The translations under genes and the position numbers were made by a program. The notes beneath the pieces were generated by a model that was not told the origin of the DNA, searched no databases, and saw only the letters and a list, made by a program, of their open reading frames with translations. 64,000 nucleotides of DNA from Gammaproteobacteria bacterium (GTDB lineage: Bacteria > Pseudomonadota > Gammaproteobacteria > Eutrophobiales > Eutrophobiaceae), in assembly GCA_965243205.1 (NCBI GenBank), contig CBDEUK010000001.1, positions 64,001 to 128,000 on the forward strand, written 5' to 3'. Numbering within the stretch: position 1 is the stretch's first letter; the number at the start of each line of letters is the position of its first letter. Shown here piece by piece: positions 30,813-51,807 of this stretch.

Positions 30813-30814
30813 AA

Positions 30815-33880: not shown

Positions 33881-33907
33881 ATCGTTATCCTGATATTAGT
33901 TATGCTG

Positions 33908-34765: not shown

Positions 34766-34780
34766 TATATAAAGTAATTC

Positions 34781-35986
34781 CTATTTTTCTAATGTATTTT
34801 TTAGAGCAAAGAGTACTTCTGACAACATATCATCCTTTAGCTCATAGTAAATTGGGATAGATAACGCCTGATAGTAATAATCCTTTGTTATGGGATAATC
34901 ATCCCGTTTAAATCCACGCTCTGCATAATAAGGATGAAATGGCACAGGTATATAATGTACTTGAGTACCAATATTTTTATCAAACAACTCTCGCATGACT
35001 TGGCCACGTGATTTGCCCAGTTTTTCGAAGTCAATACGAATCACATATAGATGTAGTGAACTATTATTACGTGATGAAGTTTGAGTTAATGTAACAAAAG
35101 GTAATTTCGCAAGTTCTTTGTCATAGATTTCTGCAATTTTTTTTCTGCGCTCTATAAATTTATTTATTTTTTTTAGCTGTGATAAAGCTAAAGCACATTG
35201 GAAGTCTGTAATACGATAATTAAACCCCAACTCCTGCATCTCATAATACCATGGGTTCAGCTTTCCTTTATCTATAGCTTCTTCTTGGTATATCAACGCA
35301 TCATCACCTTCGCTAATCCCAGGAATATCAAAATTACCTTTACATATTCCGTGACTTCGGAGTTGTAAAAGTCTTAGATAAATCGAATAATCATTCGTTG
35401 TGATCACACCTCCTTCACCTGCTGTAACACCTTTAACAGGGTGTAATGAAAATACTGTCATATCAGAATACTCACAACTTCCAACATATTTTCCAGAAGG
35501 ATAGATAGCACCGAGTGCATGTGATGCGTCTTCAATTATTTTTGCATTATGTTTTCTTGCAATATAATTTATTGACTCCATGTCACAAGGTAAACCAGCA
35601 AAATGTACTGGGATCACAGCATCTATTCCTGGTTCATTTGTAACATGGGATAAAAGTGACTCTGGAGACATATTAAGTGTATCAGGATCAATATCGGTAA
35701 ATTGCGGTTTTCCACCTGTATATAGAACAGAATTCGCACTAGCAACAAACGTATTCGCTGACGTATAAACTTTATTGTTTGGACCAATATCTGCTGCCAT
35801 GCACGCAAGATGTAAAGCTGCTGTTCCACTTGAGACTGCTACAGCATATTTTGAACCAACCTGCTTTGCTAAAGTCTTTTCAAATTCATATATGACAGGA
35901 CCTTGAGTCAGGGTACCGGACTTTAGTACTTTAATGACTTCCTCTATGTCATCCTCATCAATGTAATGTTGTCCGTAAGGAATCAT
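34781..35986 (-). CDS. pseC: UDP-4-amino-4,6-dideoxy-N-acetyl-beta-L-altrosamine transaminase
   Basis: MIPYGQH.I, LTQGP, SSGTAALH, EDASHALGA, FSLHPVK..TAGEGG, WYYEMQELGFNYRITD.QCAL, QVHYIP. Confidence 0.92.
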   Translation of the reverse strand: MIPYGQHYIDEDDIEEVIKVLKSGTLTQGPVIYEFEKTLAKQVGSKYAVAVSSGTAALHLACMAADIGPNNKVYTSANTFVASANSVLYTGGKPQFTDIDPDTLNMSPESLLSHVTNEPGIDAVIPVHFAGLPCDMESINYIARKHNAKIIEDASHALGAIYPSGKYVGSCEYSDMTVFSLHPVKGVTAGEGGVITTNDYSIYLRLLQLRSHGICKGNFDIPGISEGDDALIYQEEAIDKGKLNPWYYEMQELGFNYRITDFQCALALSQLKKINKFIERRKKIAEIYDKELAKLPFVTLTQTSSRNNSSLHLYVIRIDFEKLGKSRGQVMRELFDKNIGTQVHYIPVPFHPYYAERGFKRDDYPITKDYYYQALSIPIYYELKDDMLSEVLFALKNTLEK

Positions 35987-37037: not shown

Positions 37038-38093
37038 CTAATCATGATTAAGAGCGGGAGGTATTTTCTTATTTAACAACTTTCTAAGAATTTTTGATTT
37101 AGATAATTTTTTTCGCGTTTTTAAATACATCGTTCTAGACAATCGTAAAAACCAATATAATGGATAAGATATTATTGAGCTCAATATTTTTACTATTAAA
37201 ACGATATATCGATTAGCAATAAAGAAAAAATAATTAAAAAAATTCGAGAATTCAGTTGTAGCCATAGTAGGTAATAGCCCAATCATACGGTTTAACAATA
37301 TGATTTCATATCTCATAATCGGAAGATTCATCGCTATTAACCTTGACTTCCACTCATCAATAAACCTTATCAATAGAAAGTCTCTTTCTCCCAAATAGGG
37401 ACTTACTCGCCCAAAAAAATCATGTTTATGTTCCAAATGCATAAAACTTCTATGTAAAACATCTGAAATAAACGCAGCATTTCTACTATACATAAGCCAA
37501 ATTAAGACAACATACATATCACCTGAATGGAATACTGGGTTAGAGTAATTATTAACAGCAAGTAATTGTCTCCTAAAGAGAACGGTTGTAACTCTAAAAT
37601 TTGTAGCTTCTTTATCTTTAAATAATGCATCTATGGTCAATGGCGCTGGCATAATATTTTGTTCGGGCCACTTTAAATCAAAACTCACAATCTCACCGGC
37701 ATCAGTCTCAAAATCATATCCACACCAAACTAGGTCAACTTCATGATCACTCTCTAGCAAATCTACTCGTCGAGATAAACTATCTTCACCGATTAAAAAC
37801 TCATCACATGAAATAAAGATTATGTATTTACCTCTAGCAACTTTTAAACCGCTATTAAAATTATTGACCATACCAATATTAGTATCATGTCGAATATATA
37901 CTATTCTAGTATCATCATAACTTTGTACAATAGATTCAGTATCATCAGTACTATTATTATTACATATAATTATTTCAATTCTTTTTTCTGATTGCATCAA
38001 AAAAGAGTCTATTGCTCTCGATAAGAATTGTCCCATATTGTAAACAGGGACAACAATAGAAACCATTGGTGTGTTTTGCACTTTACTTATCAC
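37038..38093 (-). CDS. GT2 glycosyltransferase
   Basis: VSIVVPVYN, NNNSTDDT, NIG...NFN.GL..ARGKYI, SCDE. Confidence 0.88.
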   Translation of the reverse strand: MISKVQNTPMVSIVVPVYNMGQFLSRAIDSFLMQSEKRIEIIICNNNSTDDTESIVQSYDDTRIVYIRHDTNIGMVNNFNSGLKVARGKYIIFISCDEFLIGEDSLSRRVDLLESDHEVDLVWCGYDFETDAGEIVSFDLKWPEQNIMPAPLTIDALFKDKEATNFRVTTVLFRRQLLAVNNYSNPVFHSGDMYVVLIWLMYSRNAAFISDVLHRSFMHLEHKHDFFGRVSPYLGERDFLLIRFIDEWKSRLIAMNLPIMRYEIILLNRMIGLLPTMATTEFSNFFNYFFFIANRYIVLIVKILSSIISYPLYWFLRLSRTMYLKTRKKLSKSKILRKLLNKKIPPALNHD

Positions 38094-38138: not shown

Positions 38139-38918
38139 TTATGCGATCCTTTTTAAATAACCATCAGGTGCAACAGTAATTTGCAATTTATTCGCTATAT
38201 CTTTATCTATTTGGAATTCAGGATGTGATTTAATAAACTCCCAAACAGCAGTCTTAGGATTATCCCCTTTACCCCAAGGCCTATCAGGAAACATATCTGC
38301 TGGCATATCTTCTATGACAGTATCAAATACAACACAATAGCTATCTAAAGTAGTTAAATCTGCATAAGCATTTAATTCTTTTAAAACATGATCATGGGTA
38401 TGATTTGAATCTAAAACAACTAATATAGAACTATAATTTTTTGCAATACCATAAACTTTATCAACTACTTCTTGACTTATACTCGAACCCTCAATCATCT
38501 CAATGTATGAAGATAATGGATGATTATTAATCTCTTTCTTATTATGTTCTCTAATATCGATATCAATTCCTAATATTTTCCTTCTAGACGCTTGTGGGTT
38601 AATACTTTCATTTTTTTCAGCCGCTTCTACCACATCTAACATAGCCAACATGGATGCACTAAAAATTAATGAACCACCATGTGCTATACCTGTTTCAATA
38701 ATAAGGTCCGGCCTTATCTTCCATATTAACTCCTGCATACAAACAATATCTTGAGGATATTGTATAATCGGTCTACCCATCCATGTAAAATTATATGAGT
38801 ATTTATAAGGAGCTGACTTTAAAAGCCAATGATTAGAAAGTTCATGTAAGTCACTGTCCTTGCCGATTCTTTCAATATTTTTATTAACTTCATCTTTAAA
38901 TTTTTGTATGGCATCCAT
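38139..38918 (-). CDS. CmcI ('cephalosporin hydroxylase') family SAM-dependent sugar O-methyltransferase
   Basis: YSYNFTWMGRPIIQYPQD, IIETGIAHGGS, GIDIDIR, LDSNHTHDHV..EL, VFDT, PWGKGDNPKTAV, APDGYLKR. Confidence 0.88.
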   Translation of the reverse strand: MDAIQKFKDEVNKNIERIGKDSDLHELSNHWLLKSAPYKYSYNFTWMGRPIIQYPQDIVCMQELIWKIRPDLIIETGIAHGGSLIFSASMLAMLDVVEAAEKNESINPQASRRKILGIDIDIREHNKKEINNHPLSSYIEMIEGSSISQEVVDKVYGIAKNYSSILVVLDSNHTHDHVLKELNAYADLTTLDSYCVVFDTVIEDMPADMFPDRPWGKGDNPKTAVWEFIKSHPEFQIDKDIANKLQITVAPDGYLKRIA

Positions 38919-38947: not shown

Positions 38948-40084
38948 TTAAGATTTATTGAGTGATTTTATTTTTTGGGAATATTCGACCATTAATACCG
39001 AATCTGAATCTATATTTTCTCTGATTACTGCACCAGATGAAATTACAACATCACTACTAATTTTAATATTTGGCTCAACAACGATACCTGTTGCAAACCT
39101 TATTCTATTTCCTATCGTAACATTTCCTGATGTTGTAACATTTGGTCCAAAAGCACAATGACTACCTAATATATTGCCATGTTCTAAGCAAACATTACTA
39201 CTTATAAAATTATTATCACCGATAAAGGAACAAGCTCCAATATACGTATTTCCTAAAATAACATTTCCTTCTCCTATCTCTACTAATGAACGTATATTAG
39301 AAGAATCGTCAATAACATTTGCAAAAGGTATTTCCATAGATTTTATTTCATTAAATACTTTTTCGCGTTCTTTAAGATCACCATTAAAAGCAATCACAAC
39401 TGAATCTATTATTTTGTTAGCAAATAAATCCCCTAATTTATCTATTGTCCCAACAACAGGAACACCCAGTATAGTTTTATTATGATAGTAAGGATTTTTA
39501 TCTAATACAGCCACAGGGCTTTGATTCTTACTTCGTAATAAAGAATCAATAATAATTAATGCGCCTCCACCTCCAGCACCACCAATAATCGCAACACGCT
39601 CTAAATTCGCAAATCCTAGTAAGCGATTTTTATTTTGTTCATATTCGATATATTCAAGAACATGATTTTCTTTTATTTTTGTAATCGAGGGATATTGTTT
39701 TGAAATTTCTTCGAGAAGAATATTATTCTTTTTTGCTATTAGTTCAGCTTTTTTAGTAAACGATATTTCATCAGAAGAAATTAACTTTTCGCTATCATTC
39801 TCTTGCTTAAATATTTTATCAACTTCACTATCAGATAAATTCTTATTAGAAAGAATTCCCATAATTGCATTCACAGAAAGTTCATCAGAAATTTCTACAT
39901 TCCAGTAAATATATCCATCAGATTCAGACACCACATCAATTGCAGTTTTGGTAGTTTCTACTACTGCAATAATATCATCATTATTTATGAAACTATCATT
40001 TTCATAAAGTTTGCTAACAAGGTTACATGATTGATCATTAACGCCTAAGAATGGCACTCGAATTAAAGTATATTCATCTTTCAT
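38948..40084 (-). CDS. Lipoyl-domain / subunit-binding-like / PglD(NeuD)-type sugar N-acyltransferase fusion
   Basis: aa 1-80 lipoyl/biotinyl-carrier fold with VVETTK46TAIDV..DGY. aa ~108-145 TKKAELIAKKNNI..I..I...HV resembles a PSBD. Then GGAGGGG Rossmann-like PglD_N domain and hexapeptide repeats with catalytic EH (CLEHG). Confidence 0.8.
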   Translation of the reverse strand: MKDEYTLIRVPFLGVNDQSCNLVSKLYENDSFINNDDIIAVVETTKTAIDVVSESDGYIYWNVEISDELSVNAIMGILSNKNLSDSEVDKIFKQENDSEKLISSDEISFTKKAELIAKKNNILLEEISKQYPSITKIKENHVLEYIEYEQNKNRLLGFANLERVAIIGGAGGGGALIIIDSLLRSKNQSPVAVLDKNPYYHNKTILGVPVVGTIDKLGDLFANKIIDSVVIAFNGDLKEREKVFNEIKSMEIPFANVIDDSSNIRSLVEIGEGNVILGNTYIGACSFIGDNNFISSNVCLEHGNILGSHCAFGPNVTTSGNVTIGNRIRFATGIVVEPNIKISSDVVISSGAVIRENIDSDSVLMVEYSQKIKSLNKS

Positions 40085-41085
40085 TGAATTAGTTCGTTTA
40101 TAGCCAGTTTAATATTATCTATATTTACAAGTACTTTTTCTTCTAATTCTTTAGCCGCAGGTATAATAGAATTATCTGAAGATAAACAGATTATTTTTTT
40201 ATCCATAGAAAAATTTTTACTTTCATAAATTGCCTTTAACACATCAGCATTCCAGCCGAATGCTCCAGCGCCAGGTTCACATATTATATACCCATATGAA
40301 GGACAATTGAGTTGATTAATCTCTTTAATAAAGTCTAAATTATTTATTATAGATGGATAAAATACTCTTATATTGATTTCTTCATCGATAAAATCTTCTA
40401 AAATTTTATTCACCATTTGACTCATTGAACCATACGAAAATATACAAATATCAGGATTCAATCCTGAAGAAAAGTTATCTACTATGGCAATAGAATTTTT
40501 TCCAATCTGTTTTTCATTAATATTTAAAGAACCACTTTTATTATTAATTAACGGACATGTATATATATCTTTACCTTCAATAAATATTGTTACTTCATCA
40601 TCTTCTACTGATTCAATGAAGAGTTTTTTTACATCATGAGCAAGACTCGGAGAAACTACAGTAACCCCCGGCATTCCAAAAAAAAGCTTTTCAATACTCT
40701 GGCTATGAGTAGGCCCATAGCCTCTTCCGCCTCCCATAGGCGTACGAATCAAAAGCGGTACATTTACTTCTTCTCCATACATAAGTCCAAACTTCGAAGC
40801 ACTGTTTAATACTTGATCAACAGTCAAACTCATGAAGTCACCAAACATTATTTCTACAATTGGTCTGTATCCTTGTAATGCTAAACCAATCCCTACTCCA
40901 ACAATTGCCGCTTCACTAATAGGTGTGGCTATCACTTTTTCAGGAAATTTATCAGATAACCCTTTTGTAACTTTAAAGGCACCTCCATATGGATCTAGTA
41001 TATCTTCACCAAGAATTAAAACGTTATCTTTCTGTTCAAATACTTCAAAAAAACCTTTATTTATTGAATTAAGATAAGTTTCCAA
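40081..41085 (-). CDS. 2-oxoacid dehydrogenase E1 beta / transketolase C-terminal subunit
   Basis: GEDI.DPYGGAFKVTKGL, TPISEAAIVG...GLA..G.RPIVEIMF.DF, GYGPTHSQS. Confidence 0.93.
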   Translation of the reverse strand: METYLNSINKGFFEVFEQKDNVLILGEDILDPYGGAFKVTKGLSDKFPEKVIATPISEAAIVGVGIGLALQGYRPIVEIMFGDFMSLTVDQVLNSASKFGLMYGEEVNVPLLIRTPMGGGRGYGPTHSQSIEKLFFGMPGVTVVSPSLAHDVKKLFIESVEDDEVTIFIEGKDIYTCPLINNKSGSLNINEKQIGKNSIAIVDNFSSGLNPDICIFSYGSMSQMVNKILEDFIDEEINIRVFYPSIINNLDFIKEINQLNCPSYGYIICEPGAGAFGWNADVLKAIYESKNFSMDKKIICLSSDNSIIPAAKELEEKVLVNIDNIKLAINELIQ

Positions 41086-41088
41086 AAT

Positions 41089-41967
41089 TTACCCTACTAG
41101 TTTATCAACAACTAATTTAATCTCTTTTTGCACCTCAGATTCGATTTCGTTAAAGAGATCTTTATTTAAAATATTTTTCATTTTATCTATTGGGTCTTGC
41201 AATTTATAACTATCAATTTCTTCTTTAGCACGAAAATCATCACCTTTACTATGAGGAGAAAAACGATAGGTATTGAGTATTAACATTTTTGGTTTGCTTG
41301 TTTCTCTAACTTTATTTACAAGTTCGATAGCCGAACTGTGGACTGTTTCTAACTCCATACCATCGATAACTTTTGTTTCTATTTGAAATGCATTTGCTCG
41401 TTCTTCGAATGAACCGATATGTTGCATATGAGAGGGAGTTGATTGAGCGTATTTGTTATGCTCAACAACAATAAGAACTGGTAAATTCCACAATGAAGCA
41501 ATGTTAAATGTTTCATATATAATACCTTCTCCGAACGTTCCATCTCCTATAAAAGCAACAGCAATAGCTCCAGATTTTTTTAATTTTTCAGCTAAAGCCA
41601 TCCCTGCAACGATCGGAACTCCTGCTCCCTGTATTCCATTAGAATAATAATTATTTTTATGTAAATGCTGACTACCACCAATACCTAAACACACTCCGTC
41701 CTTTCTACCCATAACTTCTGCTATTAAGCCATAGACATCATTACTGTAAGCTAGATAATGACCATGTCCTCTATGGTTAGAAAATAAGATATCTTTTTTT
41801 TTGTCTAAAGCATTTACAACACCAACTGCACAAGCTTCTTGGCCAATACAAGTATGCACAGTTCCTCTTAAAAGCCCTTTAGAAAACAGTTCAAGCAAGC
41901 TTTCTTCAACGCGACGTATAAGTAACATTTGCCGAGTAAGATCATAAAAATCAGGTGAAGTTGTCAT
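41089..41967 (-). CDS. ThDP-dependent dehydrogenase E1 alpha subunit
   Basis: GTVHTCIGQEA, SNHRGHGH, GIGGSQH, ThDP motif GDGTFGEG...EHNKYA, DGM, TYRF.PHSKGD. Confidence 0.93.
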   Translation of the reverse strand: MTTSPDFYDLTRQMLLIRRVEESLLELFSKGLLRGTVHTCIGQEACAVGVVNALDKKKDILFSNHRGHGHYLAYSNDVYGLIAEVMGRKDGVCLGIGGSQHLHKNNYYSNGIQGAGVPIVAGMALAEKLKKSGAIAVAFIGDGTFGEGIIYETFNIASLWNLPVLIVVEHNKYAQSTPSHMQHIGSFEERANAFQIETKVIDGMELETVHSSAIELVNKVRETSKPKMLILNTYRFSPHSKGDDFRAKEEIDSYKLQDPIDKMKNILNKDLFNEIESEVQKEIKLVVDKLVG

Positions 41968-43085
41968 TAATCGCTTAATTTTCTATATGTATTGAGTATC
42001 ACTTCTATTACTCGATCTTGATCAGAGAATGTCATTTCATGATAAGAAGGTAAATTTATTGCTCTTTCTGGAATTGAATAGGCATTATAATTTGAAGAAA
42101 CTTCATCGAACATATCTAAGCTGCTTAAAGGCCAGAAAAAAACTCTTGCATCGATATTTTCTTTACCAAAATTTGATTGTAACTCTTCTCTCGTTATACC
42201 TATTTCATCATCGAAAACAACTGTAGGCATCCAAACACCATTTTGTGTTCCAGCCTTCTCTGGATTCATCGAAAGACCTTTTACTTCACCTAAATGTTTT
42301 TGATAATAATGAAATATCTCTCTCTTTTTACATATCAATTCATCGATACGCTCTAATTGCGCGCAACCTATTGCTGCTTGTATGTTTGACATTTTATATT
42401 TAAACCCTACTTTATCAGGCCAAAATTGTTTTTTTTGGCTACGTGCTCGTCCGTGATTTGAAAGGGTTAAAGCTGTTTCATAAAGCTGGGAGTTACTGGT
42501 TACAAATATACCTCCCTCACCAGTTGTTAATGTCTTAGTTCCATGAAAAGAAAATGTACCAAATTCTCCAATCGAACCTGCACGTTTTCCATGATAAATC
42601 GAACCAATAGCCTCTGCTGAGTCTTCAATTATCGGAATACCATACTTATTACCAATTGAATTTAACTCAGCCATTTCACATAAATTTCCATATAAATGTA
42701 CCGCAATAATAGCTTTGGTTTTAGGTGTAATAGCTTTTTCAACTAATTCAGGATTAATACACCAGCTATCTTCTAAAATATCAACAAATACTGGTGTTGC
42801 ATTAAGATAAGTAATTGGTGCAGCCGTTGCAATCCAATTGGTGTCTGCCAAAATGATTTCATCTCCTGCTCCTATACCAAGCGATGCTAATCCAAGATGT
42901 AATGCACCAGTACAACTTGAAGTAGCAATAGCATATTCAACATCTAGATGTTCTTTAAAATTTTTCTCAAACCGATTGATATAATCATAACAATGCTTTC
43001 CCCAACCATTAGTTGTAGCATCAACGGCATATTCAACCTCTTTTTCTGAAATAGAAGGCTTTGTGTAAAATATTTTTGATTTCAC
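41967..43085 (-). CDS. DegT/DnrJ/EryC1 sugar 4-aminotransferase (perosamine-synthase-like)
   Basis: SSCTGALHL, VHLYG, IEDSAEAIGS, FSFHGTKTLTTGEGG, GFKYKMSN.QAAIG.AQLE, INLPS. Confidence 0.92.
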   Translation of the reverse strand: MKSKIFYTKPSISEKEVEYAVDATTNGWGKHCYDYINRFEKNFKEHLDVEYAIATSSCTGALHLGLASLGIGAGDEIILADTNWIATAAPITYLNATPVFVDILEDSWCINPELVEKAITPKTKAIIAVHLYGNLCEMAELNSIGNKYGIPIIEDSAEAIGSIYHGKRAGSIGEFGTFSFHGTKTLTTGEGGIFVTSNSQLYETALTLSNHGRARSQKKQFWPDKVGFKYKMSNIQAAIGCAQLERIDELICKKREIFHYYQKHLGEVKGLSMNPEKAGTQNGVWMPTVVFDDEIGITREELQSNFGKENIDARVFFWPLSSLDMFDEVSSNYNAYSIPERAINLPSYHEMTFSDQDRVIEVILNTYRKLSD

Positions 43086-43169: not shown

Positions 43170-43943
43170 TTATTCCAATACAGCGTATGAAATAGAGGGA
43201 GTAGTTGGGAATCTTTTAATTTTTAAATTGGATATTCCTATCTCTTCTAAGACCGCAGTTGTTTCACCAGGCCATTGTTTTTGATTAAGTTCATCAAAAG
43301 CAATCACCCCACCCTTTGGAATTCGAGGATATAAATATTTCAAAGCAGCTTTGGTTGGTTCATATAGATCAAAATCTAAATATAGTAATGAAATTACAAG
43401 GTGTGGATTCTCTTCTACATAAGCTTTAATTGTTTGAACAGCATCACCTTCAACTAGTTCTAACTTAGGTATATGACCAATAGCTCTATTTAAATCATGT
43501 ATTTCAGCACAATTTAATAATTCCTGTTTGCCATTAAAAGAGTATGCCCCTTTATATTTATGCTCTTTATCAGCTTCTACCGAAGATTTATCGTTTTCAG
43601 CTAACGAAGGAAAACCTTCAAATGAATCAAAACCAATAATCTTTCGACCATGATTCACTGGTTCATAAATTGAACTCAATTGAAACCAAGTAAAAATTCC
43701 GCCACCTGTAAAAACACCACACTCTACAATGCTCCCATGTACTGGTAGGATTTCTTTAAATATTTCATGTTTTGCAATAAATTGACTTAAACTTTGTCTT
43801 GATACAAACCTTGGAAAAATATTTAACTTATCATTCACTGTACCAGATGCAGTATTGAAATGTTCTTCAATAGACTGCCTAAATTCCTGATCTAAATTCG
43901 TTTGAGTTGATTGGTTTTTTAAGGAAAATTTTTCAGTTTTCAT
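43170..43943 (-). CDS. TylF/MycF/NovP-family O-methyltransferase (copy 2)
   Basis: GSIVECGV..G, GFDSFEGFP, ISLLYLDFDLYEPT, GGVIAFDE, WPGE. Confidence 0.87.
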   Translation of the reverse strand: MKTEKFSLKNQSTQTNLDQEFRQSIEEHFNTASGTVNDKLNIFPRFVSRQSLSQFIAKHEIFKEILPVHGSIVECGVFTGGGIFTWFQLSSIYEPVNHGRKIIGFDSFEGFPSLAENDKSSVEADKEHKYKGAYSFNGKQELLNCAEIHDLNRAIGHIPKLELVEGDAVQTIKAYVEENPHLVISLLYLDFDLYEPTKAALKYLYPRIPKGGVIAFDELNQKQWPGETTAVLEEIGISNLKIKRFPTTPSISYAVLE

Positions 43944-44817
43944 TTTTTATACACTCAGGGTGAATATCTTCAAATTGACTCCCTTCTATCATGCCTCCAG
44001 GCCAGCCTTTTTCAACAGCAGTTTTATTTTGAAAATTTGCATACCTTAATTGTGTTGACCATCTAACATCCCCTTTACTCATTGGGACACTTTTATGAAG
44101 CAACAATGTATTAAAAACTAAAACATCTGTTAAATTAACTTCTACAGTATAAGCATCATAGTCATCAAATTTATCAGAGCCTATAATTTCAATCGTATGC
44201 GCCCCATTCTTATTTTTATTCTCAGGGTCAATTAATCTAACATCACAAATGCCGTTTTTATGGCTTTCAGGAATAATTTTAACTCCACCAAACCCTTCTT
44301 TCATTTCCATTAAAGGCATCCATAAAACTACTCCATCAGGAGAGCCTTGAATATAAGGATAATCTTGATGCCAACCAAATAAATATTTTTCTTCTCCTTT
44401 AATATCTATTCGAATAGGGATATAAGGTAATAAATTTACAAATTCAGTCTCCATCAAAAAACCAGCAAAATTTAGATTTTTTGTCTTTGATAGTAGTTGA
44501 AATAAAGATGGCAAATGTCTTGTAGCCCTATAAATTTCACCCGCTTTTGAACGATCAATTTTACAAAGTTCAATAAAGTTTTCCGAATGAATTCTATCGT
44601 CAGCATCATTTTTGTATTGTTTAAAATTAGATTCTTCTAACTTTAGTCTGATTAAATTATTTACTTCTCTAAAAACAGGTTTTAAATCTTTATCTAAATC
44701 AAAAAAATTTCTTATTAAAACCCATCCTTTTGATTGATAATGTTCTTTACAATCATTAGACATGCATTGCGTAACATCATAAATTCCATAATCATCTTTA
44801 TATTTTGTTACAGGCAT
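43933..44817 (-). CDS. PhyH-family Fe(II)/2-oxoglutarate dioxygenase
   Basis: WHQDYPY (HxD), W.PL, IPESHK, FN.LLLHKS (distal H), RWS. Confidence 0.88.
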   Translation of the reverse strand: MPVTKYKDDYGIYDVTQCMSNDCKEHYQSKGWVLIRNFFDLDKDLKPVFREVNNLIRLKLEESNFKQYKNDADDRIHSENFIELCKIDRSKAGEIYRATRHLPSLFQLLSKTKNLNFAGFLMETEFVNLLPYIPIRIDIKGEEKYLFGWHQDYPYIQGSPDGVVLWMPLMEMKEGFGGVKIIPESHKNGICDVRLIDPENKNKNGAHTIEIIGSDKFDDYDAYTVEVNLTDVLVFNTLLLHKSVPMSKGDVRWSTQLRYANFQNKTAVEKGWPGGMIEGSQFEDIHPECIKNEN

Positions 44818-44833
44818 TTCTGTATTATTCCAG

Positions 44834-45601
44834 TTATTTTTTTATGAAAAAACCGCCAGGAGTTGAAGTCCATGGAAACTTATTAAGTACAGGCATTTCA
44901 TCTTTAAAATAATCCTCAAAAGCAGAACTCTCACCACCCCACTCTGTCATTGCATATTCATCTAAAACAACTAATCCTCCAGGCACAACTCTAGGATATA
45001 AGTTTTCTAATGCAGCTAAATTTGGCTCATATATATCAACATCTAAATGCAATAATGAAATTCTAAGTCCAGGGTGCTGTTCAACATATTTTGGAACCGT
45101 TTCCAAGATATTACCTTCAACTATTTGAACTCGCTTAGCTTGAGGAACAAACATATCAGAATGATAAATATCAACAAACTCATAAAATGCGTCTTTGAAT
45201 TCTCCAGCACTCCAACCGCCTACAACTTTAGAACGGTTTTCATACATCGGGCCATCCTTGTCATTAAAATCTTGTAAGCCTTGAAAACTATCAAAACCGA
45301 TTACATTCCTTATCCTATCCCCTGGATGAAAAATTTCTAAAAACTTGGCAAATGCAAATAAACTATTACCTTGATAAACACCACATTCCACAATACAACC
45401 GGGTATATCTTGGATCATCTTATAAAGTTCATAATGAGCTAAAAAACGAGTAATATTTATTCTTCGAGCATATATAGCAAATGACTCCAAAACATCCTTC
45501 ATAGGAATATTTTCTTTTTCAATTACATCGACAATATTTTGCATCACATCCATGCCAGCTTGATTTTGTCCACCGTACATTTCTGATCTTTTTTTATCCA
45601 T
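44834..45601 (-). CDS. TylF/MycF/NovP-family O-methyltransferase (copy 1)
   Basis: PGCIVECGVYQG, GFDSFQG, ISLLHLDVDIYEP, PGGLVVLDEY, WGGE. Confidence 0.87.
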   Translation of the reverse strand: MDKKRSEMYGGQNQAGMDVMQNIVDVIEKENIPMKDVLESFAIYARRINITRFLAHYELYKMIQDIPGCIVECGVYQGNSLFAFAKFLEIFHPGDRIRNVIGFDSFQGLQDFNDKDGPMYENRSKVVGGWSAGEFKDAFYEFVDIYHSDMFVPQAKRVQIVEGNILETVPKYVEQHPGLRISLLHLDVDIYEPNLAALENLYPRVVPGGLVVLDEYAMTEWGGESSAFEDYFKDEMPVLNKFPWTSTPGGFFIKK

Positions 45602-45648: not shown

Positions 45649-46869
45649 TTATACTATCTCCAGTTGAGGTATAGTTACCACAAAATACCCACCCCAGTCA
45701 CGAATATAATCCAATTGTTCAGTTAACTCTGTTTTTAAATTCCAGGGTAAAATAACCACATAGTTAGGCTTGTCATTTTTAAGTCTAGCACCCTCTACTA
45801 TAGGTATGTGGCTACCAGGCATAAACTTACCTTGTTTAACTGCATTATTATCAACAATATATGATATTAAATCAGATTTAACGCCTAAATAATTTAATAA
45901 GGTATTACCTTTAGCAGCGGCACCATATGCAACAATCTTTTTTCCTTTTCTATTTTGTTCTAATAAAAAACTTAAAAAATCATTTTTAATTTTATTTACC
46001 CGATTTTGAAAATTAGTATAAGTAGAAAGTTCTCTACACCTTTCTTTTTCTTCTTGGTCAATAATTTCATATACAATTTCATTAACACTTCTACTATCAT
46101 CTACATGACATCCATATATTCTCAGGCTACCACCATGGGTAGGAAGCTTTTCAACATCAAAAATCTTCAAACCAGATTCTGTAAAAATTTTATTTACAGT
46201 ATAAAGAGATAAATATGAAAAATGTTCATGATATATAGTATCAAATTGACTGAGATTTATAAGATTCAGTAGATGTGGAAATTCTAATGTTACTACGCCA
46301 TCATCTTTGAGCATAGCCTTGAGGCCATTAGTAAAATTATTGATATCAGGCACATGAGCATATACATTGTTACCAATGATTAAATCTGCTTTTTTTTGTT
46401 TCGATAATTGTAATGCCAGATCATGACTAAAAAATTCACGAATTACTGAGACACCGAGTTTCTCAGCAGCATCAGCAGTACTATTAGTTGGTTCTATACC
46501 TACACAAGGAATTTCCAATTCCACAAAATTCTTTAGTAGATACCCATCATTTGAAGCAATCTCTATAACATAACTATCTTTATTAAGCTTCAATTTTTGT
46601 TTAATCATATAGACATAGTTTTTTGCATGTTCAAGCCAACTTTTTGAAATAGAAGAAAAATAAGCATAATCTGAAGAAAAAAGTTCTTCAGCATCAGAGT
46701 AGTCAATTGTTTGTACTAACCAACAACTTTCACATACATAAGTTTTAAGAGGGTACGTTGTTTCAGGTTTATTTAAATCTTCTAAATTTAAATACGCATT
46801 TGAAGGTGGAGCAAAACCTAAATCTAAAAAAACATGTTTAAGATTATTCTTACAATGACGACACTTCAT
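45649..46869 (-). CDS. NDP-4-keto-6-deoxyhexose C-methyltransferase (TylCIII/EryBIII-like)
   Basis: CRHC...CESC Zn site, YAYFSS, EIASNDGYLL, FDTIYHEH.SY, THGGSLR, YGAAAKGNTLLN, PGSHIPI, LPWN. Confidence 0.9.
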   Translation of the reverse strand: MKCRHCKNNLKHVFLDLGFAPPSNAYLNLEDLNKPETTYPLKTYVCESCWLVQTIDYSDAEELFSSDYAYFSSISKSWLEHAKNYVYMIKQKLKLNKDSYVIEIASNDGYLLKNFVELEIPCVGIEPTNSTADAAEKLGVSVIREFFSHDLALQLSKQKKADLIIGNNVYAHVPDINNFTNGLKAMLKDDGVVTLEFPHLLNLINLSQFDTIYHEHFSYLSLYTVNKIFTESGLKIFDVEKLPTHGGSLRIYGCHVDDSRSVNEIVYEIIDQEEKERCRELSTYTNFQNRVNKIKNDFLSFLLEQNRKGKKIVAYGAAAKGNTLLNYLGVKSDLISYIVDNNAVKQGKFMPGSHIPIVEGARLKNDKPNYVVILPWNLKTELTEQLDYIRDWGGYFVVTIPQLEIV

Positions 46870-47423
46870 ATCATAATCCCAGAAAACTCAGATTGAATTA
46901 AGGGATGATTCAAATCACGTTCAGATATATCTGTTACAGGCAAAGGCCAAGTTATGTTGAGTATTGGATCATTGAATCTAAACCCTGCCTCATGTTCTGG
47001 GTTATAGTATTCAGTATGACAATAATATAACTCAGAATTTTCTTCTAACACTTGAAAGCCATGAGCACATCCTTCAGGAACAACCATCATTTTATAATTT
47101 TCTTTTGAAATTTCCTCAGCATGCCACTTCAAAAACGTTGGAGAATCTTTACGCAAATCAACAGCGACATCCCATACTTTACCTTTAATACATCTAATTA
47201 ATTTCATCTCAGAATAAGGAGGGTATTGTAAATGTAAGCCTCTAATAGAACCAATTGAATGAGTGAGTGAGTAATTCATTTGTACAATCTGTTTTTTTGC
47301 TAAAATATTATCTAATTCATTTTTGCAAATTAATCGGCTAAAACTTCCACGCTCATCAGAACGCACACTACTTTCAATTATCGATACACCATCAATTACA
47401 GTATTAGTAATTTTCAATGTCAT
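46866..47423 (-). CDS. rmlC: NDP-4-keto-6-deoxyglucose 3,5-epimerase
   Basis: DERGSF, RGLHLQ, KLIRCIKG..WDVAVDLR..SPTF..W, VPEGCAHGFQ, WP. Confidence 0.92.
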   Translation of the reverse strand: MTLKITNTVIDGVSIIESSVRSDERGSFSRLICKNELDNILAKKQIVQMNYSLTHSIGSIRGLHLQYPPYSEMKLIRCIKGKVWDVAVDLRKDSPTFLKWHAEEISKENYKMMVVPEGCAHGFQVLEENSELYYCHTEYYNPEHEAGFRFNDPILNITWPLPVTDISERDLNHPLIQSEFSGIMI

Positions 47424-47436: not shown

Positions 47437-48525
47437 CTAAACTAATAGATTTGAATAATACGTTAATTGTTCTTCACTAATAATTTTGTTATTAGTTTTA
47501 AATGTTTTATACCATTCTGCAGTTAGTTTCACAGTTTCTGAAAATTCAAGAATGGGTTTCCATCCAAGTATTTCCCTTGATTTAGTTGAATCTAAATGGA
47601 GTAATTGGGCTTCATGAGGTTGATTGCTTTCATTAGATTGCCATTCTATTTCAGGCCAATACTTTTTAAACTCTGTTAAAACAGAAGATACTGTTTTATT
47701 TGAATTTTTATTTGGCCCAAAATTCCATGCTGCAGCAAATTCATTTTTTCCTTGTAATAGTTTCTCACCAAGTTGGAGATATCCATTCAGAGATTCTAAA
47801 ACATGTTGCCATGGCCGCGTCGCATTAGGATATCGAATATTTAAAGTTTGATTTTCTCTATTAGATTTTACAAGGTCAGGTATAAGCCTATCTTCAGACC
47901 AATCACCTCCACCTATAACATTACCCGCACGTGCAGAAGCAACTAAAGCGGAGTTATTATCTGAGTAAAATGATTTTCTATAACTGGCAGCAACCAGTTC
48001 GGTGGCTGCTTTTGATGCACTATATGGATCATGTCCCCCTAAAGGGTCAGTTTCTACATAAGCTGTTTCTTGCTCATAATTTTCATAGCATTTATCTGAT
48101 GTAATAATAATTATAGCTTTTAGATCTAATAATTCTCTAGAGACATCAAGCAAATTAGCTGAACCTATAACATTAGTAGTCCAAGTTAATAAAGGATTAT
48201 TATATGAGCGTCTAACTAAAGGTTGTGCAGCAAGATGAAAAATAATTTCAGGAGAAAACTTTTGAATTATAGTTCCTAACTTATCTTTATCCCGAATATC
48301 TTGATAGTGATTTTCTATATTAAGATCTAATAATTGCCAATGATTTGGATATACTTCAGGAGGTAATGAAATACCGCAAACATTTGCTCCTAATTTTTTT
48401 AACCATAATGATAACCAACTTCCTTTAAAGCCACTATGTCCTGTGACCAAAACTCGTTTATCTTTATAAATATTTGAAAATAATTTTATTTCCAAACCCT
48501 CCATGGAGCTTCGCCTGAACTCCAT
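47437..48525 (-). CDS. rfbG: CDP-glucose 4,6-dehydratase
   Basis: [63 protein letters not shown]. The true start may be the ATG at 48504. Confidence 0.95.
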
Positions 48526-49256
48526 AATTCATCTAAGGTAATTTTATCTCGCAGTGTATCCATCGGCTTCCAAAACCCTTTATGGATATACGATGATAAT
48601 TCACCATTTTGAGCAAGTCTTTCTAATGGCTCTCGTTCCCAAACTGTATCATCACCATCAATATAGTTAAGCGCTTCAGGTTTTAATACAAAAAAACCGC
48701 CACTGATCCATGAGCCATCTCCTTTAGGTTTTTCCTCAAATGTTTCGATCTTATTATCCTTAATATTAAGAGAACCAAAACGACCTGGAGGCTGAACAGC
48801 TGTAACCGTTGCTTTGGTGTTTTGTTTTTTATGAAATTGGATTAGTTCCGCAATATTGATATCGCTAACTCCATCTCCATAAGTAAAACAAAAATCCTCT
48901 TCATCGATGTATTCGGCAACACGTTTTAATCGGCCTCCAGTCATCGTATTCTCACCCGTATCAACTAACGTAACTTTCCAAGGCTCAGCATTTTGATGAT
49001 GTACTTGCATATTATTATTTGTCATATCAAAAGTTACATCTGACATATGTAAAAAATAATTCGCGAAATATTCTTTTATTACATAACCTTTATAACCACA
49101 ACATATAATAAATTCGTTAACATCATAGGACGAATACATTTTCATAATATGCCAGAGAACTGGTTTACCACCTATTTCAATCATTGGTTTAGGCTTAAGA
49201 TGAGATTCTTCAGAAATTCGTGTTCCTAAACCCCCAGCTAAAATTATTGCTTTCAT
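48486..49256 (-). CDS. rfbF: Glucose-1-phosphate cytidylyltransferase
   Basis: [55 protein letters not shown]....APW. Confidence 0.96.
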
Positions 49257-51145: not shown

Positions 51146-51748
51146 CTAAATATTTAATCCTAAAAAACTTGGGATAAATACATTCTCTTGATTAACTTCT
51201 AGGCTAATTTTTTTATAAATATCTTCTGCTTGGTCCAATGCAGTTATTAAACATGCATCGAAATGTTGAGAGTTATTTATAGTTCGACAAATTGGTTTTC
51301 CGAGGTAGTTATTTTTTTTTGTTTGCTGATCAAATGTTGCCGTATGTATTAACTCATGCTCATGTAAACGTACTGATGCAATCTCTGCTAACTCGGAAAC
51401 TCCACAAAATAAAATTTTCTTATGACCTAGCTGATGGCAAATATTAAAGGTCTCATTTACGGACTGACTGGCCTTACGATAAAAGTCAAAAGAATATGAA
51501 AGGTACTGTGCTGTCAGACGACTTTTTTCAGCAAAGCCTTTTGGAGTTAGATAGTAGAGATAGCGATTTGCCGGTATATGTTGAATTTTGATCAGGCCTT
51601 TATTGGCACAACGCTTTAAGTAGGAATTGGCCAAGCCAAGTGCCACGCCAAGATTATCGGCAAGATGACGCTGAGTAACCTCTTGATTTTCTTCAATAGT
51701 TTGAAGAATCTCTAAAGTCATTGCATCTTCTTTTTCCTTAGCGTTCAT
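51146..51748 (-). CDS. Winged-helix (MarR-like, EPS-associated) transcriptional regulator with Rossmann-like C-terminal domain
   Basis: TQRHLADNLGVALGLANSYLKRC..KGLIK and RYLYYLTPKGFAEKSRLT; C-terminal FCGVSELAEI. The ATG at 51748 is preferred; the ORF track starts at 51778. Confidence 0.88.
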   Translation of the reverse strand: MNAKEKEDAMTLEILQTIEENQEVTQRHLADNLGVALGLANSYLKRCANKGLIKIQHIPANRYLYYLTPKGFAEKSRLTAQYLSYSFDFYRKASQSVNETFNICHQLGHKKILFCGVSELAEIASVRLHEHELIHTATFDQQTKKNNYLGKPICRTINNSQHFDACLITALDQAEDIYKKISLEVNQENVFIPSFLGLNI

Positions 51749-51787: not shown

Positions 51788-51807
51788 TACTATATGTAGT
51801 AGTAGAC

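What the first reader, a model, noticed from the sequence alone, without database searches (positions are those of the whole stretch)
38948..43085. 2-oxoacid-dehydrogenase machinery re-wired onto an amino-sugar N-acyltransferase (candidate lipoyl-relay, CoA-independent glycan acylation)
Seen: four tightly coupled genes encode a DegT-type 4-aminotransferase, E1-alpha, E1-beta and a 378-aa protein. That protein starts like an E2 subunit, with a lipoyl-type domain (ETTK46, closer to lipoyl E[T/S]DK than to biotinyl AMKM), a linker and a PSBD-like segment. Where the E2 catalytic core should be, it has a PglD/PerB/NeuD-type sugar N-acyltransferase (GGAGGG N-domain plus LbH with catalytic EH). Its C-terminus reads VLMVEYSQK rather than the GxPA motif that contacts CoA in PglD-like enzymes; the other LbH gene here (20790) keeps GNPAK. 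No E2 core or E3 is encoded in the window. Established: E1 reductively acylates lipoyl arms, and in quinocarcin/naphthyridinomycin pathways E1-like proteins load a glycolyl unit from ketoses onto a lipoyl carrier. Inference: E1 generates an acyl group (acetyl, glycolyl or another 2-oxoacid-derived acyl) on the lipoyl arm, which passes it directly to the 4-amino NDP-sugar. Housekeeping E3 would re-oxidise the arm. I do not know of this architecture being characterised.
Basis: partly seen in the sequence, partly recalled or inferred. Interest (0 to 1): 0.9.

Follow-up and report, generated by a model that had tools for sequence, protein, structure and literature searches.

The report
Lipoyl-armed amino-sugar N-acyltransferase with own E1
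A sugar-modifying enzyme in a bacterial surface-glycan gene cluster carries the swinging lipoyl arm and docking helix of a pyruvate-dehydrogenase E2 subunit and always travels with its own E1 enzyme, which suggests a so far undescribed way of putting acyl groups on amino sugars without coenzyme A.

Summary
Window 38948-43085 (minus strand) holds four translationally coupled genes: a DegT aminotransferase, E1-alpha, E1-beta, and a 378-aa protein. That protein consists of a lipoyl domain (ETTK46), a PSBD-like helix pair and a PerB/VioB-type N-acyltransferase (catalytic H302).

The fusion is a large, uncharacterised family: 833 representatives at E<=1e-30, from many phyla.
- The lipoyl lysine is kept in 238 of 239 sequences that have that column.
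- The catalytic His is kept in 258 of 258.
- The C-terminal G-x-P-A turn of CoA-using relatives is absent in 258 of 258.
- Several CoA-phosphate contacts of VioB are replaced, one by an invariant Glu.

A family-type E1 lies directly upstream in 46 of 51 loci and elsewhere in the genome in the other 5. The E1 residues needed to acylate a lipoyl arm are invariant (41 of 41).

The genome has no other alpha/beta-type E1. Its E2 cores, E3 and LipA/LipB lie elsewhere.

Best reading (about 0.6): E1 loads an acyl group onto lipoyl-K46 and the beta-helix domain passes it to a CDP-4-amino-6-deoxyhexose. Housekeeping E3 would then re-oxidise the arm. Direct transfer, independence from CoA and the identity of the acyl group are all inferred.

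Ten literature searches found no description of this fusion.

The parts
41967..43085 (-). DegT/DnrJ/EryC1-type PLP sugar aminotransferase (372 aa). It would make the amino sugar that is to be acylated.
   Evidence: PF01041 398.6 bits. The best NCBIfam hits (LegC, PseC, others) are all under their cut-offs, so the regiochemistry is not assigned.
41089..41967 (-). E1-alpha (292 aa), the ThDP-binding subunit of a heterotetrameric 2-oxoacid dehydrogenase-type E1.
   Evidence: PF00676 194.8 bits. TIGR03182 scores 256.9, under its cut-off of 393.85. The closest solved structure is human PDH E1-alpha, E 5e-43. GDG, N171 and R235/H239-S-K-G-D-D are kept in 41 of 41 family members. It is the only alpha/beta-type E1-alpha in the genome.
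40081..41085 (-). E1-beta (334 aa).
   Evidence: Transket_pyr 101.8 bits; NF006667 scores 157.9, under its cut-off of 321. E58, F84 and H127 align with G. stearothermophilus E59-beta, F85-beta and H128-beta and are kept in 41 of 41.
38948..40084 (-). The 378-aa fusion protein: lipoyl domain, PSBD-like segment, PglD_N-like domain and left-handed beta-helix.
39845..40075 (-). Lipoyl domain (residues about 4-80). The K46 codon is at 39947-39949.
   Evidence: ETTKTAI is read at 39938-39958. The family profile hits E2 lipoyl domains at 6.4e-25, against 4.5e-6 for the best biotin carrier. Fold match to 1gjx, TMt 0.79. K46 is kept in 116 of 116 and 122 of 123 sequences.
39620..39763 (-). PSBD-like helix pair (residues about 108-155; motif TKKAE...I.E.DV).
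   Evidence: Helices 111-119, 124-130 and 139-155 in the model. It aligns colinearly with the PSBDs of this genome's own SucB and AceF. K112 and A113 are kept in 118 of 118. E3_binding is matched by 8 of 30 members at E<=1.
39320..39601 (-). PglD_N-like nucleotide-sugar-binding domain (residues about 162-255; GGAGGGG loop).
   Evidence: Aligns with PerB and VioB from their N-termini. Fold TM 0.87. Atlas clusters carry PF17836.
38990..39319 (-). Left-handed beta-helix acyltransferase domain (residues about 256-365). The catalytic H302 codon is at 39179-39181.
   Evidence: Hexapep 33.3 bits. H302 aligns with VioB His135 and with the PerB residue mutated in H141N/A. It is kept in 258 of 258 sequences.
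48486..49256 (-). Glucose-1-phosphate cytidylyltransferase (start of the sugar pathway).
   Evidence: TIGR02623 477.8 bits, over its cut-off of 300.25.
47437..48525 (-). CDP-glucose 4,6-dehydratase.
   Evidence: TIGR02622 475.8 bits, over its cut-off of 278.45.
46866..47423 (-). RmlC-type 3,5-epimerase.
   Evidence: TIGR01221 158.2 bits, over its cut-off of 155.75.
45649..46869 (-). NDP-sugar C-methyltransferase (zinc-binding domain, SAM methyltransferase domain and C-terminal domain).
   Evidence: PF08484 206.4 bits and PF08421 84.1 bits.
43170..45601 (-). TylF-like methyltransferase (44834-45601), PhyH-type Fe/2OG dioxygenase (43933-44817) and a second TylF-like methyltransferase (43170-43943).
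   Evidence: TylF1 follows the fusion in the related cassettes L001-L009. TylF2 plus PhyH appear together in L003 and L007, and PhyH alone in L004.
38139..38918 (-). CmcI/rhamnosyl O-methyltransferase-family protein, just downstream of the fusion.
   Evidence: PF04989 315 bits. Conserved in the cassettes of L001-L009.
37038..38093 (-). GT2 glycosyltransferase.
   Evidence: PF00535 90.3 bits.

Best explanation
The four genes encode a small 2-oxoacid-dehydrogenase-like machine in which the E2 catalytic core has been replaced by a sugar N-acyltransferase.

Proposed steps:
1. The pathway CDP-glucose -> 4-keto-6-deoxy sugar -> epimerised and C-methylated sugar gives a keto sugar. DegT transaminates it. 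(Inferred from family assignments.)
2. E1-alpha/beta, held on the fusion protein by its PSBD-like helices, decarboxylates a small 2-oxoacid, or cleaves an acyloin or ketose, on ThDP. It then reductively acylates the lipoyl group on K46. (Inferred. The residues for this step are conserved.)
3. The acyl-dihydrolipoyl arm swings into the active site between subunits of the beta-helix trimer. H302 deprotonates the sugar amine, which attacks the thioester and gives the N-acyl sugar without a CoA intermediate. (Inferred.)
4. Housekeeping dihydrolipoyl dehydrogenase re-oxidises the arm. (Inferred. The enzyme is present in the genome.)

The acyl group is not known. The E1 is closest to pyruvate-type E1s, so a C2 or C3 unit (acetyl, glycolyl or propionyl) is most likely. 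The methyltransferases and the dioxygenase beside the module may modify the sugar or the acyl group further.
For: (a) Architecture. The protein has an E2-type lipoyl domain and a PSBD-like segment in E2 order. They are fused to a PerB/VioB-fold N-acyltransferase.

(b) Purifying selection on the arm.
- K46 is kept in 116 of 116 sequences and in 122 of 123 further representatives.
- E43 is kept in 116 of 116, and K112/A113 of the PSBD helix in 118 of 118.

(c) The acyltransferase centre is kept. H302 is found in 258 of 258 sequences. S319-G320, which align with VioB Ser152-Gly153 (the oxyanion site), are retained.

(d) The features that hold CoA in relatives are changed across the whole family.
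- G-x-P-A turn: 0 of 258.
- VioB Arg170 -> E337, Glu in 119 of 119.
- VioB Glu171 -> P338.
- VioB Gly182 -> A/G/S at 349.
- VioB Arg189 -> not conserved.
- The strictly conserved Asn128 -> S295, with a new invariant N292-F293.

(e) A dedicated E1.
- It lies directly upstream on the same strand in 46 of 51 loci that have enough flank (L055 judged by eye).
- The 5 exceptions all have a family-type E1-alpha/beta elsewhere in the genome, at 230-350 bits against 195 bits or less for other E1s.
- In some Chloroflexi, E1-alpha and E1-beta are one ORF.

(f) The E1 residues for the lipoyl half-reaction are invariant. The equivalents of beta-H128, beta-E59 and beta-F85, and the alpha H239-S-K-G-D-D loop, are kept in 41 of 41.

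(g) In this genome the cluster's E1 is the only alpha/beta-type E1. No 2-oxoacid_dh core lies in the window, while Lpd, LipA and a LipB-like gene exist elsewhere.

(h) The fusion sits where the N-acetyltransferase is expected. In L043 the order is sugar phosphotransferase, GFO oxidoreductase, E1a, E1b, fusion, DegT, GT2. In L001-L009 the conserved cassette holds no other gene matching the LbH N-acyltransferase (the fusion); other acyltransferase families such as GNAT were not among the queries.
Against: - Nothing here shows that K46 is lipoylated, that E1 binds the fusion, or what the acyl donor is.
- The loss of CoA contacts is not diagnostic. PerB uses acetyl-CoA, yet it has Ile at the Arg170 position and Pro at the Glu171 position. 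The pantetheine-side elements (G351, the oxyanion Gly) are kept, as they would be for either donor.
- For the window protein alone, the lipoyl domain scores under Pfam's cut-off and the PSBD is not detected.
- Only 22 of 55 loci show a DegT homologue within the fetched flank.
- Some Chloroflexi loci (L014, L011) are not in an obvious glycan context, so the acceptor may not always be a nucleotide sugar.
- No E3 is linked to the module.
- If the acyl group were plain acetyl, the module would seem needless.
Confidence: 0.6

Rival explanations
1. Conventional donor. The beta-helix domain uses an acyl-CoA like PerB or VioB. The lipoyl/PSBD part only tethers it to E1. E1, with a housekeeping E2 or by some other route, supplies the acyl-CoA locally.
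For: - The catalytic His, the oxyanion Gly and the pantetheine-side turn glycine (G351) are kept.
- All characterised Type I sugar N-acetyltransferases use acetyl-CoA (PMC9271549, passages).
- PerB also lacks some of the VioB phosphate contacts.
Against: - A tether would not need an invariant lipoyl lysine (238 of 239).
- The module has no E2 core to make acyl-CoA.
- The G-x-P-A turn is absent in 258 of 258.
- An invariant Glu sits where VioB places a phosphate-binding Arg.
Confidence: 0.15
2. E2-core surrogate. The beta-helix domain moves the acyl group from the lipoyl arm to CoA or another carrier, not to a sugar. It would make an unusual acyl thioester for a separate transferase.
For: - This is the logic of ordinary E2, and of QncL, whose acyltransferase domain passes a glycolicacyl unit from lipoyl to an ACP (PMC6335953, passages).
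- Some Chloroflexi loci lack an evident sugar context.
Against: - The domain has the PglD_N nucleotide-sugar-binding half and superposes on PerB and VioB at TM 0.87.
- The fusion is the only LbH-type N-acyltransferase detected in the conserved proteobacterial cassette; the only acyltransferase query was the fusion itself.
- Pfam scans of the window's neighbouring genes show no ACP.
- The CoA-nucleotide contacts are the part that is lost.
Confidence: 0.1
3. Branching, not N-acylation. Like the proposed AviB1/AviB2 and Pau11/Pau12 pairs, the E1 adds a two-carbon branch from pyruvate to the 4-keto sugar. The fusion protein acts independently.
For: - E1-like pairs are proposed to install C-4 acetyl branches on deoxysugars (PMC4753412, passages).
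- The window cassette makes a 4-keto-6-deoxy sugar.
Against: - The E1 is tied to a lipoyl/PSBD protein in 51 of 51 cases.
- The E1 histidines used for lipoyl acylation are invariant.
- An aminotransferase in the same operon competes for the same keto group.
- E1-beta and the fusion are translationally coupled.
Confidence: 0.05
4. The N-terminal domain carries biotin, or is an unmodified relic, with a role unrelated to acyl transfer.
For: - Pfam's Biotin_lipoyl family covers both cofactors.
- The window protein scores under the cut-off.
Against: - The profile matches E2 lipoyl domains far better than biotin carriers (6.4e-25 against 4.5e-6).
- The motif is ETTK, not the (A/V)MKM that I recall for biotin carriers.
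- GCV_H is matched by 12 of 30 members.
- No carboxylase partner is present, whereas an E1 partner always is.
Confidence: 0.03

Closest known systems
E2 (dihydrolipoyl acyltransferase) subunits of 2-oxoacid dehydrogenase complexes, e.g. G. stearothermophilus PDH E2 with alpha2beta2 E1
   Same: - N-terminal lipoyl domain with the lysine in an E-T-x-K turn, then a linker and a peripheral-subunit-binding-type helix pair, in the same order.
- The partner is an alpha/beta E1 with the conserved lipoyl-acylation histidines.
   Different: - No 2-oxoacid_dh (CAT-like) catalytic core. Its place is taken by a PglD_N plus left-handed beta-helix sugar N-acyltransferase.
- The predicted acceptor is an amino sugar, not CoA.
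- The PSBD joins the catalytic domain through only about six residues.
Type I sugar N-acetyltransferases PerB (4ea7), VioB (7txp), PglD, PglB-ATD
   Same: - Two-domain fold (TM 0.87, rmsd 1.5 A to PerB).
- Catalytic His (H302 = VioB His135).
- Ser-Gly at the oxyanion position.
- 30-32% identity to PerB.
   Different: - A 160-residue lipoyl/PSBD extension.
- Scores under the TIGR03570 cut-off.
- Lacks the conserved G-x-P-A cis-proline turn (0 of 258).
- Lacks the strictly conserved Asn at the aligned position (Ser295).
- Lacks VioB's Arg170 and Arg189 phosphate contacts; E337 is invariant at the first.
QncN/QncL/QncM (quinocarcin) and SclQ1-4 (scleric acid) glycolicacyl-loading system
   Same: An E1-like ThDP enzyme plus a lipoyl attachment domain is used in secondary metabolism to build an acyl unit on a lipoyl arm and hand it on for an amide or ester product (PMC6335953, passages).
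   Different: - There the lipoyl domain is fused to an E2-type acyltransferase domain and the acceptor is an ACP.
- Here the acyltransferase is a beta-helix sugar N-acyltransferase. No ACP is seen among the neighbours.
AviB1/AviB2 and Pau11/Pau12 E1-like pairs of deoxysugar pathways
   Same: E1-alpha/beta-like genes embedded in a deoxysugar pathway and acting near a 4-keto-6-deoxy intermediate (PMC4753412, passages).
   Different: - Those are proposed to make a C-C bond (a C-4 acetyl branch), and the passages I read mention no lipoyl protein.
- Here a lipoyl carrier is fused to an N-acyltransferase and an aminotransferase is co-transcribed.

Membership tests
E2 dihydrolipoyl acyltransferase (2-oxoacid dehydrogenase complexes) | Lipoyl domain with a modifiable lysine | tested here: met
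   By sequence and fold only. ETTK46 aligns on ETDK of E2p. Fold TMt 0.79 to 1gjx. K is kept in 238 of 239 sequences. Actual lipoylation cannot be tested here.
E2 dihydrolipoyl acyltransferase (2-oxoacid dehydrogenase complexes) | Peripheral-subunit-binding domain | tested here: inconclusive
   Colinear hhalign with the PSBDs of the genome's own SucB and AceF, and the predicted helices fit. But PF02817 is matched by only 8 of 30 members at E<=1 and not by the window protein.
E2 dihydrolipoyl acyltransferase (2-oxoacid dehydrogenase complexes) | 2-oxoacid_dh (chloramphenicol-acetyltransferase-like) catalytic core, PF00198 | tested here: not met
   No PF00198 match in the protein. The genome's two PF00198 matches lie outside the window. 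The C-half is an LbH fold.
NeuD/PglB/VioB (Type I) sugar N-acetyltransferases | PglD_N-like domain plus left-handed beta-helix, with the catalytic histidine | tested here: met
   TM 0.87 to PerB and VioB. H302 aligns with VioB His135. Kept in 258 of 258.
NeuD/PglB/VioB (Type I) sugar N-acetyltransferases | Score over the curated family cut-off (TIGR03570) | tested here: not met
   124.6 bits against a cut-off of 160.8.
NeuD/PglB/VioB (Type I) sugar N-acetyltransferases | Strictly conserved Asn (VioB Asn128) and C-terminal Gly-x-Pro-Ala turn (VioB Gly199-Pro201), as described in PMC9271549 | tested here: not met
   The aligned residues are S295 and V366-E-Y-S369. The G.PA pattern is found in 0 of 258 family C-termini. 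S/T/A occupy position 295 in 120 of 120.
NeuD/PglB/VioB (Type I) sugar N-acetyltransferases | Acetyl-CoA as acyl donor | not testable with these tools
   Needs an enzyme assay.
Heterotetrameric (alpha2beta2) 2-oxoacid dehydrogenase E1 | ThDP motif, the cofactor-activating Glu, and the two histidines of the lipoyl half-reaction | tested here: met
   Alpha: GDG and N171. Beta: E58, F84 and H127, equal to Gst E59, F85 and H128. Alpha H239 lies in the R-x-x-P-H-S-K-G-D-D loop; its equivalence to Gst H271-alpha is recalled, not aligned here. All are kept in 41 of 41.
Pyruvate dehydrogenase E1 (equivalog models) | Score over the curated cut-offs TIGR03182 and NF006667 | tested here: not met
   256.9 against 393.85, and 157.9 against 321. 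The substrate is therefore not assigned.
QncN/L/M-type glycolicacyl loaders | E2-type acyltransferase domain and a dedicated ACP acceptor | tested here: not met
   Pfam scans of the fusion and its neighbours show neither.

The most novel reading that the evidence does not exclude
This is a CoA-free '2-oxoacid : amino-sugar N-acyltransferase complex'. A trimeric beta-helix transferase takes the place of the E2 core, docks E1 through a PSBD and receives its acyl group from its own lipoyl arm. Surface-glycan N-acyl groups, possibly unusual ones such as glycolyl or propionyl that are later hydroxylated or O-methylated, would then be made straight from a central-metabolism 2-oxoacid or ketose. The system would be widespread: 833 representative clusters across Pseudomonadota, Chloroflexota, Planctomycetota, Acidobacteriota, Bacillota and others.
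Probability: 0.5. Interest if true: 0.9.

Novelty: new variant of a known kind. Interest (0 to 1): 0.8.

Why it matters
If the relay works as proposed, it would be the first case known to me (by recall and by ten searches of the held library) in which a lipoyl arm delivers an acyl group to a final small-molecule acceptor through a left-handed beta-helix enzyme. In known systems the acyl group goes to CoA or an ACP through an E2-type core.

It would add a third solution to the question of what sits at the centre of a 2-oxoacid dehydrogenase-like assembly. It would also give a new acyl-donor class for the large LbH transferase superfamily.

It would explain E1 genes that are routinely annotated as 'pyruvate dehydrogenase' inside O-antigen or capsule loci.

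It offers a route to N-acyl sugar diversity that does not depend on acyl-CoA pools. That bears on glycan antigen prediction and on enzymatic synthesis of modified nucleotide sugars.

The family is large and entirely uncharacterised. Its automatic names are 'hypothetical protein' and 'biotin/lipoyl-containing protein'. One experiment would therefore annotate many genes.

Tried and rejected
**Docking.** Complex prediction with three copies of residues 158-378 plus the lipoyl domain 1-90 as partner gave 'no answer' (score 0.00, controls not run). It counts neither for nor against binding.

**Split forms.** A search for shorter relatives of the beta-helix half gave only 2 proteins at E<=1e-10 among 95 candidates. 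Both may be fragments, so nothing can be said about natural split forms. Among the 150 best representatives, 19 cover only part of the profile. I could not tell fragments from stand-alone forms.

**Literature.** Ten searches found no paper on a lipoyl-LbH fusion or on E1 genes coupled to sugar N-acylation.
- The library lacks most subscription journals, and supplements were closed. Absence in print is therefore not shown.
- PMC4875605 uses 'lipoyl' to mean fatty acylation and is irrelevant.
- I recalled that Coxiella O-antigen loci hold E1 genes. I could not confirm this: no mention in PMC5843353 or PMC13552124. I dropped it.

**Identity of the sugar.** The cassette reminded me of N-acylkansosamine (C-methyl, O-methyl, 4-amino-6-deoxy, methoxy-acyl). 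That structure is recalled. only shows that the sugar exists in M. kansasii LOS and says nothing about E1 or lipoyl genes. It remains a lead.

**E1 substrate.** I did not attempt to assign it from pocket residues, because I had no reliable residue map.

**Organism.** A housekeeping Lpd has its best named relatives among uncultured 'Gammaproteobacteria bacterium' MAGs at 65-68% identity. No species was assigned.

Full report
**What is there**

Window 38948-43085 carries four minus-strand ORFs.
- A DegT/DnrJ/EryC1 aminotransferase, 41967-43085 (PF01041, 398.6 bits).
- E1-alpha, 41089-41967 (PF00676, 194.8 bits).
- E1-beta, 40081-41085 (Transket_pyr, 101.8 bits).
- A 378-aa protein, 38948-40084.

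DegT and E1-alpha share one base. The E1-beta stop and the start of the last gene overlap in an ATGA. The four genes are therefore built to be translated together.

They sit in a run of about 50 kb of minus-strand glycan genes. Directly upstream lie:
- glucose-1-phosphate cytidylyltransferase (TIGR02623, 477.8 bits, over cut-off);
- CDP-glucose 4,6-dehydratase (TIGR02622, 475.8 bits, over cut-off);
- an RmlC-type epimerase;
- a sugar C-methyltransferase;
- two TylF-like methyltransferases flanking a PhyH-type dioxygenase.

Downstream lie a CmcI-family methyltransferase and a GT2 transferase. The acceptor is thus most likely a CDP-linked, C-methylated 4-amino-6-deoxyhexose. The position of the amino group was not tested.

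**The 378-aa protein**

*N-terminal part.* ETTK46 is read directly.
- Alone, the N-terminus scores just under Pfam's Biotin_lipoyl cut-off (20.0 against 22.1).
- I built a profile of 30 family N-termini: the window plus 29 of the 55 loci (A2). It hits E2 lipoyl domains at E 6.4e-25, with the best single domain at 1.1e-10 and ETTK aligned on ETDK. The best biotin carrier reaches only 4.5e-6.
- All 30 members match PF00364, 12 match GCV_H, and 8 match E3_binding at E<=1.
- hhalign places the same profile colinearly on this genome's own SucB (residues 2-162, 97.6%) and AceF (110-277, 96.2%). The alignment runs through lipoyl domain, linker and PSBD.

*C-terminal part.* It matches PerB (E 2e-22) and VioB.
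- An AlphaFold model from a 45-sequence alignment has mean pLDDT 93.4.
- The model superposes on PerB and VioB at target-normalised TM 0.87. Its N-terminus superposes on lipoyl domains (1gjx 0.79, 1y8n_B 0.71).
- The model shows helices at 111-119, 124-130 and 139-155. Only about six residues lie between the last helix and the first strand of the transferase.

**A family, not a one-off**

- The word-indexed search found 152 relatives.
- The exhaustive profile search found 833 cluster representatives at E<=1e-30. Of the 150 best, 131 cover the profile end to end (my count from the table).
- ESM Atlas clusters of 51 to 339 members carry Hexapep plus Biotin_lipoyl, with or without PglD_N. Their automatic names are 'hypothetical protein' or 'biotin/lipoyl-containing protein'.
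- Records come from Gamma- and Alphaproteobacteria, Chloroflexota, Planctomycetota, Acidobacteriota, Verrucomicrobiota, Desulfuromonadaceae, Desulfotomaculaceae and others.

Conservation in the 120 listed relatives:
- K46 and E43: 116 of 116 sequences that have the column.
- K112 and A113: 118 of 118.
- N292, F293, E301, H302 and F312-G313-P314: 120 of 120.
- E337 and P338: 119 of 119.

In 138 further, more distant representatives:
- K46: 122 of 123.
- H302: 138 of 138.

**Comparison with CoA-using relatives**

The VioB paper (PMC9271549, passages read) names these features:
- His135 as the catalytic base;
- the Gly153 amide as the oxyanion site;
- Arg170, Arg189 and Lys206 as phosphate contacts;
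- Glu171 on the cysteamine nitrogen;
- the Gly182-Met183-Gly184 turn on pantothenate and adenine;
- a conserved Gly199-x-Pro201 turn that changes on CoA binding in relatives;
- a strictly conserved Asn128.

In the ungapped block, VioB residue n aligns with fusion residue n+167.
- Kept: His135 = H302, Ser152-Gly153 = S319-G320, Gly184 = G351.
- Changed: Arg170 = E337 (invariant Glu), Glu171 = P338, Gly182 = S349 (A/G/S in the family).
- Changed: Arg189 = E356 (not conserved) and Asn128 = S295 (S/T/A in 120 of 120). Gly199-Asn-Pro-Ala = V366-E-Y-S.
- No family member has G.PA in its last 40 residues: 0 of 120 and 0 of 138.

So the chemistry end of the site is kept and the nucleotide end of the CoA site is not.

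Caveat: PerB, which uses acetyl-CoA, also has Ile and Pro at the positions of Arg170 and Glu171. It does keep G-V-P-A-K.

**The E1 partner**

Of the 64 loci fetched from one genome per species, 55 carry the fusion at 100 bits or more.
- 46 of the 51 loci with usable upstream sequence have E1-alpha/beta directly upstream on the same strand. The script counted 45. L055 was added by eye, because a long stop-to-stop frame hid it.
- 4 loci have under 150 bases upstream.
- 5 loci (L011, L030, L041, L044, L052) have no E1 nearby.
- All 5 of those genomes hold an E1-alpha at 230-350 bits (46-58% identity) elsewhere. Their other E1s score 195 bits or less. E1-beta is adjacent or fused.
- In the two genomes where downstream sequence could be fetched, no second fusion gene follows.
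- In several Chloroflexi, E1-alpha and E1-beta form one 650-700-aa ORF.

Across 41 E1 pairs the following are invariant (numbering):
- the ThDP motif;
- beta-E58, F84 and H127 (G. stearothermophilus E59, F85 and H128; H128-beta is the proposed acid/base of reductive acetylation);
- the alpha R-x-x-P-H239-S-K-G-D-D loop.

The equivalence of H239 with Gst H271-alpha is recalled, not aligned here.

The E1 is nearest to pyruvate-type E1s (human E1-alpha, E 5e-43). It scores under the equivalog cut-offs, so its substrate is open.

**Genome context**

- The window's E1-alpha is the only alpha/beta-type E1 in the 2.79-Mb genome.
- The two E2 cores and the best Lpd lie far outside the window.
- LipA (422.7 bits) sits beside a BPL_LplA_LipB-family gene, so lipoylation is available.
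- In L043 the fusion stands in the order oxidoreductase, E1a, E1b, fusion, DegT, beside an initiating sugar transferase and a GT2. That is the place of the N-acetyltransferase in keto-amino-acetamido sugar pathways.
- In the close cassettes L001-L009 the whole set is conserved: cytidylyltransferase, dehydratase, epimerase, C-methyltransferase, DegT, E1a, E1b, fusion, TylF, CmcI. No other homologue of the LbH N-acyltransferase appears there; only relatives of the 13 window genes used as queries could be detected.

**Interpretation**

A lipoyl lysine that is conserved across phyla, a dedicated E1 that keeps the lipoyl half-reaction residues, and the absence of any E2 core leave the beta-helix domain as the only candidate to unload the arm. 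Its fold, its nucleotide-sugar domain and its gene neighbours point to an amino sugar as acceptor.

I therefore favour direct, CoA-independent N-acylation from acyl-dihydrolipoyl-K46 (about 0.6). Housekeeping E3 would close the cycle.

What is shown: the architecture, the conservation, the co-occurrence and the changed CoA-site residues.

What is inferred: lipoylation, E1 docking, direct transfer, the need for E3, and the acyl group.

The rivals are a conventional acyl-CoA donor (0.15), transfer to CoA or a carrier (0.10), AviB-like C-branching (0.05) and a biotin or relic domain (0.03).

**Novelty**

The closest known systems are ordinary E2 subunits, the PerB/VioB/PglD transferases, the QncN/L/M glycolicacyl loader and the AviB1/B2-type E1 pairs. 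The protein fails a defining feature of both parent families: it has no PF00198 core, and it lacks the G-x-P-A turn, the conserved Asn and the TIGR03570 cut-off score. It works like a hybrid of the two.

Ten searches of the held library found no description (calls listed under Tried and rejected). Subscription journals and supplements were out of reach.

I rate it a new variant of a known kind, of high interest.

Noticed in passing
window 26183-35986 (-): The same cluster holds two NeuB-family synthases (26183-27223, 303 bits; 32879-33880, 130 bits) and a PseC equivalog aminotransferase (34781-35986, TIGR03588 477 bits, over cut-off). It also has a class-III aminotransferase, cytidylyltransferases and GNAT acetyltransferases, one of them on a 646-aa protein. 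This suggests that one or two nonulosonic-acid (pseudaminic-like) pathways share the cluster with the CDP-sugar pathway.
   Followed up: partly
window 21369-26161 (-): An unusual block: an HpcH/HpaI aldolase, a HAD hydrolase, an FkbM methyltransferase, an NAD epimerase, a D-2-hydroxyacid dehydrogenase and a glucosamine-6-P-isomerase-like protein. It could make a further modified sugar or a side chain.
   Followed up: no
window 16252-18132 (-): A 626-aa ORF inside the glycan cluster has no Pfam match at E<=1e-4.
   Followed up: no
window 56867-62281 (+), especially 60001-62000: An 1804-aa ORF on the opposite strand contains a stretch of 52% G+C, in a window that is otherwise about 30-34%. It was not analysed.
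   Followed up: no
window 51146-52940 (-): A NusG/RfaH-like protein (51808-52326), a winged-helix protein (51146-51778) and an APS kinase (52332-52940) lie in the upstream part of the glycan cluster, with further sugar-nucleotide genes beyond them at 52965-56627. A possible operon antiterminator for the long cluster.
   Followed up: no
L013 5844-7799; also L014, L017, L019, L025-L027, L031, L047, L050, L054: In many Chloroflexi loci and one Chitinophagaceae locus (L054), E1-alpha and E1-beta are fused into one ORF. The L013 ORF is 652 aa with E1_dh, Transket_pyr and Transketolase_C. It lies directly before the lipoyl-LbH gene.
   Followed up: partly
L030 6277-7947 and L041 1423-2811: Where the fusion gene is unlinked from its E1, a DAO-family FAD oxidoreductase lies directly upstream. 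L030 also has an amidase there, and L041 an enoyl-CoA hydratase. I have no explanation. The acceptor or donor may differ in these loci.
   Followed up: partly
L023 1658-13041: In a Desulfuromonadaceae MAG the E1a-E1b-fusion triad is embedded among radical-SAM genes: two B12-binding ones, two SPASM ones and one weakly matching one. A GT9 transferase and a DegT aminotransferase are also there.
   Followed up: no
window 43933-45601 (-); L003, L007, L004: The PhyH-type dioxygenase with the second TylF-like methyltransferase forms an optional pair. It is present in the window, L003 and L007 (PhyH alone in L004) and absent from L001, L002, L006, L008 and L009. It looks like a hydroxylate-then-methylate add-on to the same sugar or its acyl group.
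   Followed up: partly
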